64,000 nt of DNA. It comes from Escherichia coli. GTDB taxonomy: Bacteria > Pseudomonadota > Gammaproteobacteria > Enterobacterales > Enterobacteriaceae. The stretch lies in the NCBI RefSeq assembly GCF_044324875.1, contig NZ_CP172185.1, one strand, 5' to 3'. Positions 52,901 to 55,900 of this stretch are shown one piece after another. The position numbers were made by a program. Within the stretch, counting starts at the first letter, position 1. Every line of letters begins with the position of its first letter.

Positions 52901-55900
52901 GTGAGGCACTGCACTGGGCGGTCACTACGGGCGGCTTCAACAGTGAAACAGTACAGGACGTCATGCTGGGAGCGGTGGAACGCCGCTTCGGCAACGAGCT
53001 TCCGGCGTCTCCAGTAGAGTGGCTGACGGATAATGGTTCATGCTACCGGGCTAATGAAACACGGCAGTTTGCCCGGATGTTGGGGCTTGAACCGAAGAGC
53101 ACGGCGGTGCGGAGTCCGGAGAGTAACGGCATAGCAGAGAGCTTCGTGAAAACGATAAAGCGTGACTACATCAGTGTCATGCCCAAACCAGACGGGTTAA
53201 CGGCAGCAAAGAACCTTGCAGAGGCGTTCGAGCATTATAACGAATGGCATCCGCATAGTGCACTGGGTTATCGCTCGCCACGGGAATATCTACGGCAGCA
53301 AGCCAGTAATGGGTTAAGTGATAACAGGTGTCTGGAAATATAGGGGCAAATCCAGGATCGTGGTTAACCGGGGCGATTTTCCGGTGATCAAACTGGGTAA
53401 CGCCAGACTGCGACTGTCCAGGCGTAAACGTCGTCGAAAGGGCGAGCGTTCAGCCGAGAAAGGCGGAGGAAGTGTTCTTGTCGTGGGGAACCGCCGTATT
53501 CCGGGGGCTTTTATCCAGAGACTTAAAAACGGTCGCTGGCATGTTATGCAGCGGGAAGCAGGCCGAAATCGTTATCCTATTGATGTGGTGAAAATACCGA
53601 TGCAGGCTCCGCTGACGTCAGGGGTGCAGGAGAATATCACACGGTTGTACAGGGATAAGTTTCCCGCAGAACTGGCTGCCGCACTGAAACAGAAGATACG
53701 AATGGAGGTGAAAAAGCGATGAAGCATACTGATATCCGCAATGCCGTGCTGAATGCGCTGGAGGAGACTACCGAGGGTGTGACGCTGTATGACGGACTGC
53801 CCGCCGTTATCGAAGACGGGGATTTTCCGGTTATTGCCGTTTATATCACGGATGCTGCATATACAGGTGAGGTGCTTGATGCGGATACGTGGGAGGCCAC
53901 TCTGCATATTAATCTGTTTCTTCCGGTCCAGGTTCCTGATGCTGAACTGGATGACTGGATGGAAAAACGCATTTATCCGGCGATTGAAAATATCCCCGCT
54001 CTGGCCGGACTGATAACCACCATGGTACCGCAGGGCTATGATTACCAGCGTGATCAGGACATGGGGTCATGGAGTGCGGCAGATCTGACTTATACCATTA
54101 CATACGATATGTGAGGCTGAATAATGACAACACCGAATCCGGCAGCACCGGTAAAAGGTGCAGGAACCACGCTCTGGGTATACACCGGAAAAGGGGATCC
54201 GTATGCGAATCCACTGTCCGATGTTGACTGGGAGCGTCTGGCAAAAGTGAAGGATCTGGCTCCCGGTGATATGACCGCTGAGTATTATGATGATAATTAT
54301 CTTGATGACGACGATGCGGACTGGGTTTCCACAGGGCAGGGGCAGAAGTCAGCAGGAGATACCAGTTTTACGCTGGCATGGAAACCCGGCGAAAACGGGC
54401 AGCGAGGGTTACTGGCATGGTTCGATCAGGGGGATGTTCGTGCCTATAAAATCCGCTTTCCGAACGGCACGGTGGATGTTTTTCGTGGCTGGGTGAGCAG
54501 TATTGGCAAAGCGATTACTGCAAAGGATGTTATCACGCGTACTGTAAAAGTGACCAATGTCGGACGTCCGTCTCTGGCGGAAGATCAGGGCAGTGTTACG
54601 GCGCTCACCGGTATTACCCTGACACCATCCACTCATACCTTGGCGAAGAACAGCACTGTGGATCTGACCGTGGCACTCCAGCCTGCGCGGGCTACCGATA
54701 AAACTTTCCGTGCCATTTCCACCGACACATCAAAAGCGACGATCAGCGTTAATGATATGACCATCACAGTGAAGGGCATCGCTGCGGGTAAATCGCAGAT
54801 CCTGGCCATCAGTGGTGACGGTCAGTTTGCGGCTGTCGCAGAAATCAATGTTACGGGCTGATATCAGGCCTTTCTGCTTTTTCCGGAGTTTTACCGATGT
54901 TTCTCAAAAATGAACCGTTTGAATATAACGGGCAGTCCGTCACGCTCACGGAACTGTCAGCCCTGCAGCGTATCAGCCACCTTGCCTTCCTGAAAGCGCG
55001 TGAAGAGGCTGAGGGGGGTGATGATATACAGGTGGCACTGGATGACACTATCCGGGAGGGGGCATACCTTGTGGCTATGTCACTGTGGCATACCCATCCT
55101 GTAAAGGGGACGCTGGGATCGCCGGAAGACGAAGAACGACAACTGATGAATGAGGTATTGCAGAGATGGCCGGTGGAGGCCATCTCTGCAGCATTCAGTC
55201 GTGTCATTGTTCTGTCGGGAATGGTGACCCCGGTACGGACCGCGCCGGAAGAGGAGGAGACTGAAGCGGTGACGGCGGGAAAGCCTTCGACAGTGAACTG
55301 AATTTTGTCCTGAGACTGGCGCGTGAGATGGGAAGACCCGACTGGCGCGCCATGCTGGCGGATATGTCATCAACGGAATATGCCGACTGGCATCAGTTTT
55401 ACCGTACGCATTATTTTCATGATGTGCTGCTGGATCAGCATTTTGCTGGGCTGACGTATACCGTGCTCAGCCTGTTTTTCAGCGATCCGGATATGCATCC
55501 GCTGGATTTCAGTCTGCTGAACCGGCGTGAGGCTGACGAAGAGCCTGAAGATGACGTGCTGATGCAGAAAGCAGCAGGGCTTGCCGGAGGGGTTCGTTTT
55601 GACCCTGCGGGGAATAAAGTCATCTGCATTGCCTCTGATGTGGAGGATATGACGGGGGATGGTGTCATGCTGATGACGATATCGGAAGGTATAGCAGGAG
55701 GTAGACGGTATGGCTCAACCGGTCAGTGATCTTGTCGTTGATATGACGCTGGATGCCACCCGGTTCAGCGAACAGATCAAAAAGGTCAGGCAGCATTTTC
55801 AGCAGGTGGACAGTGATGCAGGAAAAACGGCTGTTGCTGTTGAGCAATCCATGTCCCGGCAGGCGGAAGCTGCCCGCCGTGCCGGGATATCCATCGGTCA

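What the first reader, a model, noticed from the sequence alone, without database searches (positions are those of the whole stretch)
55277..55283. Conserved G-T programmed -1 frameshift site
The slippery heptamer G GGA AAG lies in the zero frame near the end of G, and the -1 frame is open into the T ORF, as in lambda. Tail assembly genes upstream of the IS insertions are therefore intact in detail.
Basis: partly seen in the sequence, partly recalled or inferred. Interest (0 to 1): 0.15.

Follow-up and report, generated by a model that had tools for sequence, protein, structure and literature searches.

The report
Lambda-type G-T tail chaperone frameshift site
This is the well-known ribosome-slipping signal that lambda-like phages use to make a small amount of a fused tail-assembly helper protein; it is perfectly preserved here, but it is ordinary and sits in a prophage whose tail genes are broken in three other places.

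Summary
GGGAAAG lies at 55277-55283 (+), phased G GGA AAG, seven codons before the stop of a 134-aa gpG homologue (Pfam PF06894). The -1 frame is open for 150 codons into a gpT homologue (PF06223, 85% identical to lambda gpT). The heptamer aligns column for column with lambda's experimentally mapped G-T slip site.

All 79 T relatives examined in IMG/VR carry GGGAAAG at the same place. Two diverged clades carry A AAA AAG or G GAA AAG, so only A_AAG is invariant. Sequence variation follows the T frame from the slip site onward, which argues against independent initiation of T. The predicted fusion is 277 aa.

This is an already known mechanism in a gene pair that databases already name; annotation pipelines just do not model the fusion.

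U, V, G and T are intact, and G-T is 100% identical to IS-free copies in eight other E. coli contigs. But G-T lies between two insertions, not upstream of them: IS2 splits gene Z upstream and an ISSso4 (IS21-family) element splits tape-measure gene H downstream. Gene K also carries a nonsense mutation. The signal is sequence-competent but probably has no working tail pathway to serve. Interest is low.

The parts
54885..54888 (+). GGAG Shine-Dalgarno-like sequence 8 nt upstream of the G start codon
   Evidence: Read directly from the sequence. Function is inferred.
54897..55301 (+). Gene G (tail assembly chaperone gpG homologue, 134 aa; zero-frame product)
   Evidence: ORF and translation. Pfam PF06894 Phage_TAC_2, E 1.7e-40. 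52% aa identity to lambda gpG. phrog_42 and phrog_32165 positions 1-134. The exact protein is in NCBI as E. coli 'phage tail assembly chaperone G'.
55277..55283 (+). Slippery heptamer G GGA AAG, the -1 programmed ribosomal frameshift site
   Evidence: Phase and position. It aligns with lambda's site at J02459 10109-10115. GGGAAAG is present in 79/79 T relatives, always with 5 codons between the heptamer and the G stop. It is replaced by A AAA AAG or G GAA AAG in diverged clades, and A_AAG is invariant.
55283..55729 (+). T segment read in the -1 frame (148 codons plus stop), the C-terminal part of the predicted 277-aa GT fusion (G residues 1-129 + AFDSELNF...STGQ)
   Evidence: Translation. PF06223 Phage_tail_T, E 3.4e-15. 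85% identity to lambda gpT. phrog_32165 positions 139-289. Variable columns concentrate on codon position 3 of this frame: 18/26 against 6/25 and 5/26.
55317..55352 (+). Predicted 14-bp interrupted hairpin, 33 nt 3' of the heptamer. Its role is unproven and it may be a by-product of the conserved peptide LAREMGRPDWRA.
   Evidence: strand folding predicts it in the window, lambda and L003, with z-scores of -2.8, -1.55 and -2.4 for the 100-nt stretches. 94-98% of pair cells are kept, but there is almost no compensatory change.
54124..54861 (+). Gene V (major tail tube protein), upstream synteny partner and binding target of the T domain
   Evidence: PF16461 + Big_2. 74% identity to lambda gpV.
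55710..56875 (+). 5' part of tape-measure gene H, the binding target of gpG, truncated by the ISSso4 insertion. The 3' part resumes at 59515.
   Evidence: PF06791 TMP_2. 77% identity to lambda gpH N-terminus. The uninterrupted 859-aa H is seen in L019-L022. The junction is mapped.

Best explanation
The site is the G/GT programmed -1 ribosomal frameshift signal of a lambdoid prophage tail module.

Mechanism:
- Ribosomes translating gene G normally stop at 55299-55301 and release the 134-aa chaperone gpG.
- A few per cent (about 4% in lambda) slip back one base while tRNA-Gly and tRNA-Lys(UUU) occupy GGA-AAG. They re-pair with GGG-AAA, read GCC next, and continue in the T frame to 55729. This yields a 277-aa GT fusion.
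- In lambda, many gpG molecules and a few gpGT coat the tape-measure protein gpH through the G part. The T part recruits the tube protein gpV. Neither product ends up in the virion.

Shown here: the anatomy, the homology, the exact positional equivalence with lambda, conservation of slipperiness in relatives, and coding constraint in the T frame starting at the slip site.

Inferred: that the slip occurs, at what rate, and what the proteins do.

In this copy the signal is intact but its pathway is not. Z is split by IS2, H by ISSso4, and K has a premature stop. The site is therefore best read as a recently orphaned but still competent signal, not one serving a working tail.
For: - Heptamer, phase and open -1 frame.
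- G = PF06894 and T = PF06223, placed between V (PF16461) and H (PF06791).
- Identity to lambda: G 52% and T 85%. The heptamer aligns with lambda's GCGGGAAAG.
- The slip site lies 7 codons before the G stop in the window and in lambda and 15 IMG/VR G relatives.
- 79/79 T relatives carry GGGAAAG in the same register.
- Other clades carry A AAA AAG or G/A GAA AAG. A_AAG is invariant across 27 distinct sequences.
- Variation falls on T-frame third positions from the slip site on, including the stretch upstream of the first ATG of the T ORF.
- phrog_32165, a 290-position family, matches the G part at 1-134 and the T part at 139-289.
- Literature: about 4% frameshifting at GGGAAAG, Gly-Lys in both frames, dependence on tRNA-Lys(UUU) (PMC3296357). 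A 30:1 ratio, G binding H, T binding V, and wide conservation (PMC5009743). G_GGA_AAG is highly shift-prone in E. coli (PMC5009743).
- Defective context: IS2 in Z, ISSso4 in H, nonsense in K. The region is otherwise 99.98% identical over 12.4 kb to IS-free copies.
Against: - No expression data of any kind: neither the fusion nor the frameshift rate can be observed with these tools.
- The heptamer alone occurs at chance frequency in the window.
- The exact 277-aa fusion is absent from the protein collection; pipelines annotate T as a separate 133- or 143-aa protein.
- The 100% identity of G-T to other copies reflects recent common ancestry, so it says nothing about present selection in this strain.
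- With H, Z and K disrupted, the products have no complete cis pathway to serve.
Confidence: 0.93

Rival explanations
1. T is an independent gene, as pipelines annotate it: 133 aa from ATG 55328, or 143 aa from CTG 55298. On this reading the in-phase heptamer is incidental and no fusion is made.
For: Gene callers and NCBI records list T as a separate protein. An ATG exists at 55328 with a weak GAG-type purine stretch before it. The heptamer is not enriched in the window.
Against: The 15 codons between the slip site and that ATG are conserved as protein: AFDSELNFVLRLARE against lambda VFDGELSFALKLARE. They vary mainly at T-frame third positions, although no start codon precedes them in that frame. 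The slip site is kept in 79/79 relatives. In diverged clades it is replaced by other shift-prone sequences, not by random sequence. The ATG lies inside a predicted stable hairpin. In lambda, expression of gpGT depends on frameshifting at this heptamer (Levin 1993, as cited in PMC3296357).
Confidence: 0.03
2. The signal is still in use. G and GT are expressed on induction, because Q-antiterminated late transcription reads through IS2. They then act in trans, or through recombination, for co-resident or superinfecting lambdoid phages. On this reading selection still maintains the site in this strain.
For: A Q-antiterminator-sized ORF lies at 37092-37526, matching the annotated Q family protein of the related prophage in L030, and the late region is contiguous. 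U, V, G and T are intact. E. coli genomes typically hold several related tail modules: a median of 2 and up to 22 places per genome match this region.
Against: This G allele is only 52% identical to lambda gpG and at most 57% identical to any IMG/VR relative, so cross-compatibility with another phage's H is uncertain. The 100% identity to other copies is explained by recency without any selection. No expression data exist.
Confidence: 0.1
3. The two-frame product arises by transcriptional slippage of RNA polymerase on the G/A run, not by ribosomal slippage.
For: Relatives with AAAAAAG have a run of six A. Transcriptional slippage is a known route to frame change in some bacterial genes (PMC5009743).
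Against: In the window the homopolymer runs are only 3 G and 3 A, which from general knowledge is far below the lengths that support RNA polymerase realignment. The gpG:gpGT ratio in lambda responds to tRNA-Lys(UUU) modification, which points to a ribosomal event (PMC3296357).
Confidence: 0.01

Closest known systems
Bacteriophage lambda G / G-T programmed -1 frameshift (Levin, Hendrix & Casjens 1993; Xu, Hendrix & Duda 2004, 2013, 2014)
   Same: - Identical heptamer G GGA AAG in the same phase, 7 codons before the G stop.
- Same gene order V-G-T-H.
- Same protein families. T is 85% identical to lambda gpT.
- Fusion sizes are close: I predict 277 aa here, and the same arithmetic on lambda's annotated G (140 aa) and T (144 aa) gives 279 aa.
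   Different: - G is a diverged allele, 52% aa identity. Nucleotide identity to lambda jumps from 43-77% to 83-98% right at the slip site, which marks a mosaic joint.
- T runs 4 codons longer because lambda's TGA is TCA here.
- The surrounding tail module is broken by IS2, ISSso4 and a nonsense codon.
Tail assembly chaperone frameshifts of other long-tailed phages (for example the G-T relatives with A AAA AAG or G GAA AAG found here; P2 E/E' as cited in PMC5009743)
   Same: Two overlapping ORFs sit between the tail tube and tape-measure genes. A low-level -1 shift occurs near the end of the first ORF. The A-site A_AAG slip is the conserved core.
   Different: The P-site codon differs: AAA or GAA instead of GGA. 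The G GAA AAG clade lacks a canonical X XXY YYZ heptamer.
IS2 insC/insD (IS3 family) -1 frameshift at A AAA AAG, present in the same window at 52432
   Same: A -1 ribosomal slip on an ..A AAG motif fuses an upstream ORF to a longer -1 ORF.
   Different: The proteins are unrelated (transposase). From general knowledge, IS3-family sites typically rely on a nearby downstream structure. The G-T site has no structure at the canonical 5-9 nt spacing.
E. coli dnaX tau/gamma -1 frameshift
   Same: Host tRNA-Lys(UUU) slips on A AAG in E. coli.
   Different: From general knowledge, dnaX uses A AAA AAG with an upstream SD-like element about 10 nt away and a close downstream hairpin, giving about 50% shifting and a shorter product. 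Here the only SD-like run (GAGGAGGAG, 55251-55259) ends 17 nt upstream and is not conserved in lambda. The only predicted hairpin starts 33 nt downstream.

Membership tests
Lambda-type G/GT tail assembly chaperone programmed -1 frameshift | Two overlapping ORFs located between the major tail tube gene and the tape-measure gene | tested here: met
   V (PF16461) 54124-54861; G 54897-55301; T frame to 55729; H (PF06791) from 55710.
Lambda-type G/GT tail assembly chaperone programmed -1 frameshift | Upstream ORF is a gpG homologue | tested here: met
   PF06894, E 1.7e-40. 52% identity to lambda gpG, E 2e-43. phrog_42.
Lambda-type G/GT tail assembly chaperone programmed -1 frameshift | Downstream ORF lies in the -1 frame, is a gpT homologue, and has no stop between the slip site and the T domain | tested here: met
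   150 open codons from 55277. PF06223. 85% identity to lambda gpT.
Lambda-type G/GT tail assembly chaperone programmed -1 frameshift | Shift-prone heptamer X XXY YYZ in zero-frame phase near the 3' end of G, at the position mapped experimentally in lambda | tested here: met
   G GGA AAG at 55277-55283, 7 codons before the stop. It aligns with lambda's site.
Lambda-type G/GT tail assembly chaperone programmed -1 frameshift | Slip site, or at least slipperiness, is conserved among relatives | tested here: met
   79/79 relatives have GGGAAAG. 15 have AAAAAAG. 14 have G/A GAA AAG. A_AAG is invariant. One relative (L015) has lost the site by deletion.
Lambda-type G/GT tail assembly chaperone programmed -1 frameshift | Protein-coding constraint in the T frame begins at the slip site, so T has no start of its own | tested here: met
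   Variable columns by T-frame codon position 1/2/3 are 6/25, 5/26 and 18/26 after the G stop. In the G-T overlap, 5 of 6 third positions vary.
Lambda-type G/GT tail assembly chaperone programmed -1 frameshift | A GT fusion is actually produced at a few per cent of G | not testable with these tools
   Needs a reporter assay, western blot or mass spectrometry. The lambda value is about 4%, a 30:1 ratio (PMC3296357 and PMC5009743).
Lambda-type G/GT tail assembly chaperone programmed -1 frameshift | G and GT are required for tail assembly with a functional tape measure | not testable with these tools
   Genetic test needed. In this copy H is split by ISSso4, Z by IS2, and K has a stop, so the cis pathway is incomplete.
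Stimulator-dependent bacterial -1 PRF (dnaX / IS3 type) | Conserved SD-like element 6-17 nt upstream and/or a stable structure 5-9 nt downstream of the motif | tested here: not met
   The first 60 nt downstream fold no better than shuffles (z +1.57 for the window, +0.67 for lambda). The only hairpin starts 33 nt downstream and has negligible covariation. The SD-like GAGGAGGAG ends 17 nt upstream and is absent in lambda.

The most novel reading that the evidence does not exclude
The most novel reading not excluded is that G:GT stoichiometry in this phage group is tuned by elements beyond the heptamer. There are two candidates.
1. The strongly conserved hairpin 33 nt downstream (55317-55352). 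This is about one ribosome footprint away, so a leading ribosome pausing at it could queue the next ribosome on the slip site.
2. The prophage-borne tRNA with a UUU anticodon (39489-39565). It derives from the phage tRNA-Arg(UCU) lineage and could compete with host tRNA-Lys at the AAG codon.
Both are speculation built on sequence coincidences.
Probability: 0.04. Interest if true: 0.5.

Novelty: already known. Interest (0 to 1): 0.06.

Why it matters
As a discovery it matters little. The lambda G-T frameshift has been a textbook case of programmed recoding since 1993 and is known to be conserved across long-tailed phages. There are three practical points.
1. Annotation pipelines still call T as a free-standing 133- or 143-aa protein and omit the 277-aa fusion, so the site is worth flagging for correct annotation.
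2. The perfect preservation of G-T between two IS insertions shows that this prophage decayed very recently. It differs from intact copies at only 2 bases in 12.4 kb.
3. The comparison across clades shows that only A_AAG is invariant, while the P-site codon is GGA, AAA or GAA. This is a small, clean illustration that the A-site tRNA-Lys slip is the conserved core.

Tried and rejected
- **Heptamer enrichment:** rejected as evidence. There are 7 copies against 8.3 expected.
- **Close downstream stimulator:** the first 60 nt fold no better than shuffles.
- **Hairpin at 55317-55352 as a conserved RNA element:**
  - Pairs are kept in 94-98% of cells.
  - There were no double changes among 21 sequences.
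  - There was one pair (3 cells) with double changes among 27 sequences, and uncompensated breaks at pair 44-73 in 5 sequences. The RNAalifold covariation term was -1.1 kcal/mol.
  - The result is inconclusive. The hairpin is most simply a by-product of the conserved peptide and the palindromic GCGCGC core.
- **Upstream SD-like GAGGAGGAG:** not conserved in lambda.
- **Other in-phase heptamers with long -1 ORFs:** comparing their coordinates with the ORF lists, ten of the twelve have the real gene in the -1 frame or on the opposite strand, so I treat them as chance.
- **Solved structures:** no PDB sequence relative of the fusion.
- **Papers:** I tried to read Xu et al. 2013 (PMC3762263), but it is not held. 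A search of PMC4066793 for the motif string found nothing because of that paper's notation.
- **Source genome:** no complete RefSeq E. coli genome holds this G allele. The best full-length match is about 80% identical, so the source genome could not be identified there. The exact G protein is nevertheless present in 29 NCBI E. coli contigs.

Full report
**1. The observation**

The + strand reads ...GTG ACG GCG GGA AAG CCT TCG ACA GTG AAC TGA. GGGAAAG occupies exactly 55277-55283. ORF 54897..55301 (134 aa) puts 55277 at the third position of a GCG codon. The phase is therefore G GGA AAG (Ala-Gly-Lys), seven codons before the TGA at 55299-55301. Translation from 55277 in the -1 frame gives 150 sense codons (GKAFDSELNFVLRLAREMGRPDWRAML...RYGSTGQ) up to the stop at 55727-55729.

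The heptamer alone is not special: 7 copies in the window against 8.3 +/- 3.2 expected. Of 110 in-phase X XXY YYZ heptamers in open frames of at least 100 codons, 12 are followed by a -1 frame open for at least 100 codons. Comparing those 12 with the ORF lists, only two have a real gene in the zero frame. One is this site. The other is the A AAA AAG of the IS2 insC/insD junction at 52432.

**2. What the two ORFs are**

- The zero-frame ORF matches Pfam PF06894 (lambda tail assembly chaperone G; E 1.7e-40).
- The -1 frame matches PF06223 (minor tail protein T; E 3.4e-15).
- They lie between a tail tube gene (PF16461 + Big_2, 54124-54861) and a tape-measure gene (PF06791, from 55710).
- Against lambda (J02459), G is 52% identical and T is 85% identical. 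V is 74% identical, and the N-terminal part of H is 77% identical.
- In the nucleotide alignment the heptamer and its preceding GC fall on lambda's GCGGGAAAG, column for column.
- PHROG family 32165, 290 positions long, matches the G part at positions 1-134 and the T part at 139-289. The two ORFs map onto the two halves of one family.
- From these coordinates I predict a fusion of G residues 1-129 (...EAVTAGK) followed by AFDSELNF...STGQ, 277 aa in all. The same arithmetic on lambda's annotated G (140 aa) and T (144 aa) gives 279 aa.

**3. Comparative evidence that the slip is selected**

- Lambda and 15 G relatives from IMG/VR have an in-phase slippery heptamer exactly 7 codons before the G stop. 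Most of these relatives carry A AAA AAG, not G GGA AAG.
- All 79 T relatives examined carry GGGAAAG in the same register, always with 5 codons between the heptamer and the G stop.
- A third clade of 14 loci carries G GAA AAG (13 loci) or A GAA AAG (1 locus) at the homologous place.
- Across 27 distinct sequences, only A-A-A-G (alignment columns 4-7) is invariant within the heptamer. The conserved core is the A-site tRNA-Lys slip, and the P-site codon may be GGA, AAA or GAA. This fits published rules for E. coli: A_AAG is the best tetramer, and G_GGA_AAG is highly shift-prone (PMC4066793 abstract and discussion; PMC5009743).
- After the G stop, variable columns fall on T-frame codon position 3 (18/26) far more than on positions 1 and 2 (6/25, 5/26). 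In the 18-nt G/T overlap the T frame is likewise the constrained one.
- The 15 codons between the slip site and the first ATG of the T ORF are conserved as protein. T is therefore read from the slip site, not from its own start.
- One relative (L015) has lost the site by a deletion, as expected for a decaying copy.

**4. Mechanism**

The steps below rest on the lambda literature, not on tests made here.

- In lambda, about 96% of ribosomes terminate as gpG. About 4% slip -1 on GGGAAAG and make gpGT. Gly-Lys is encoded in both frames, and both Lys codons are read by tRNA-Lys(UUU). Modification of U34 in that tRNA changes the gpG:gpGT ratio and phage yield (PMC3296357; PMC7618472).
- The roughly 30:1 ratio is crucial for tail assembly. 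The G part binds the tape measure gpH and the T part binds gpV. Neither product is in the virion. The arrangement is conserved among long-tailed phages (PMC5009743).
- I looked for extra stimulators. The first 60 nt downstream fold no better than shuffled sequence (z +1.57 for the window, +0.67 for lambda).
- A 14-bp interrupted hairpin (55317-55352) is predicted in the window, lambda and L003. It starts 33 nt after the heptamer, which is too far for a canonical stimulator.
- The hairpin's pairs are kept (94-98% of cells) with almost no compensatory change, and several breaks are uncompensated. I rate it inconclusive, and most simply a by-product of the conserved peptide LARE(M/F)GRPDWR.
- An SD-like GAGGAGGAG ends 17 nt upstream but is absent in lambda.

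**5. Context: an intact signal in a broken module**

- Window positions 1 to about 23,600 are E. coli chromosome (bglX, dld, mdtQ, preT ... yehW, mlrA), at about 98% identity.
- A lambdoid prophage follows. By correspondence with the annotated related prophage in L030, it has an integrase (23655-24941, minus strand), a repressor, replication genes and a Q antiterminator (37092-37526). It also has tRNAs, lysis genes, and lambda/21-like head and tail genes.
- Eight contigs from other E. coli strains carry a G-T stretch that is 100% identical over 833 bp. In most of them Z (193 aa) and H (859 aa) are uninterrupted.
- Against these copies, the window has three lesions:
  - An IS2 of 1331 bp at 52024-53354, inside gene Z, flanked by a GGATC duplication at 52019-52023 and 53355-53359.
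  - An ISSso4 (IS21-family) element of 2639 bp at 56876-59514, inside H, flanked by AGATGGC at 56869-56875 and 59515-59521.
  - A GAG->TAG change at 62198 that truncates gene K at codon 79.
- With the two IS elements removed in silico, the region differs from the IS-free copies at only 2 bases in 12.4 kb. The decay is very recent.
- G-T therefore lies between the two insertions, and Z, upstream of it, is not intact. U, V, G and T themselves are intact.

**6. Comparison with what is known, and novelty**

The site passes every sequence-level membership test for the lambda-type G/GT frameshift. The only untested features are production of the fusion and its genetic requirement. The exact G protein and the T ORF are already in NCBI, named 'phage tail assembly chaperone G' and 'phage tail assembly protein T'. 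The 277-aa fusion is not annotated.

The differences from lambda are modest:
- G is a diverged allele. At most 57% aa identity is found in IMG/VR and about 75% nucleotide identity in phage records.
- A mosaic joint coincides with the slip site: identity to lambda rises from 43-77% to 83-98% there.
- The T ORF is 4 codons longer.

This is an already known feature, and interest is low. The most novel reading not excluded is a distal modulator, either the hairpin or the prophage tRNA with a UUU anticodon. I give it about 4%.

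Noticed in passing
window 52024-53354 (target duplication 52019-52023 / 53355-53359): A complete 1331-bp IS2 is inserted in tail gene Z with a 5-bp GGATC target duplication. 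The empty site is present in L019-L024 and L026. IS2's own A AAA AAG -1 frameshift site (insC->insD) is at 52432, so the window holds two programmed -1 frameshift signals 2.8 kb apart.
   Followed up: yes
window 56876-59514 (target duplication 56869-56875 / 59515-59521): A 2639-bp ISSso4 (IS21-family; istA, istB) element is inserted in tape-measure gene H with a 7-bp AGATGGC duplication. The 7 nt of target just beyond the duplication (TGCAAAA) are identical to the first 7 nt of the IS left end. This could be coincidence or a hint of target preference for end-like sequence.
   Followed up: partly
window 62198 (gene K, 61964-62707): A single G->T change turns GAG into TAG (E79*) in tail-tip gene K (JAB + NlpC/P60), relative to otherwise identical copies in L019 and L020. 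This is a third inactivating lesion in the tail module. The only other difference over the 12.4 kb is at 51334.
   Followed up: yes
window 39412-39487 and 39489-39565: The prophage carries two tRNA genes. The first has a CAU anticodon and is annotated tRNA-Ile by PGAP in related genomes. The second has anticodon UUU with an unusual C33 and a weak Rfam score of 31 bits. It is a derivative of the phage tRNA-Arg(UCU) gene, with an anticodon-loop change CTTCTAA->CCTTTAA and a compensating G-C->A-T change in the anticodon stem. PGAP calls near-identical sequence (99.6% in LH50-c and Ch1, 96% in GF4) tRNA-Lys. The window copy has extra stem-weakening substitutions (for example a C-C at acceptor pair 7-66). 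A link to the tRNA-Lys-dependent G-T slip is pure speculation.
   Followed up: partly
window 55317-55352: A predicted 14-bp interrupted hairpin (UGGCGCGU.AG.UGGG-AAGA-CCCG.CU.GCGCGCCA) starts 33 nt downstream of the slip site. It is also predicted in lambda and L003. It is highly conserved but has almost no covariation. It contains the ATG (55328) that gene callers use as the T start.
   Followed up: yes
L011/L114-L127 (IMG/VR), homologous position: A clade of G-T relatives has G GAA AAG (13 loci) or A GAA AAG (1 locus) in place of a canonical X XXY YYZ heptamer, always 5 codons before the G stop. This implies either a tetramer-type A_AAG slip or near-cognate re-pairing of tRNA-Glu on GGA.
   Followed up: partly
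L015 (IMGVR_UViG_2869970738_000006), about 1870-1900: A relative in which a deletion has removed the slip site and fused G out of frame into T sequence, giving a 207-aa zero-frame ORF. It is probably a decayed copy.
   Followed up: no
window 54897-55729 versus lambda: There is a mosaic joint at the slip site. Nucleotide identity to lambda is 43-77% across G and 83-98% across most of T. The recombination boundary therefore coincides with the G/T domain boundary. No phage record or IMG/VR contig has a close match to this G allele (at most 57% aa).
   Followed up: partly
window 55708-55729: T ends 4 codons later than in lambda (RYGSTGQ* against RYG*). Lambda's TGA within ATGGCTGAA is TCA here, which is also an E2Q change in H. 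T therefore overlaps H by 20 nt, compared with 8 nt in lambda.
   Followed up: yes
L025 (GCA_965266905.1, CBDHUW010000174.1): Another E. coli assembly shares the right IS2/Z junction but has an uninterrupted H at the ISSso4 site. It also has 2.1 kb of unrelated sequence to the left of IS2. This suggests that IS2 entered Z before ISSso4 entered H, and that an IS2-associated rearrangement occurred in that strain.
   Followed up: partly
window 54855-54880: A weak terminator-like hairpin plus T-run (GGGCTGATATCAGGCCT TTCTGCTTTT) overlaps the V stop, just upstream of G. Terminator-like sites in 53300-57000 number 7 against 2.8 +/- 1.6 expected. It may lower expression of genes downstream of V, but this was not tested.
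   Followed up: no
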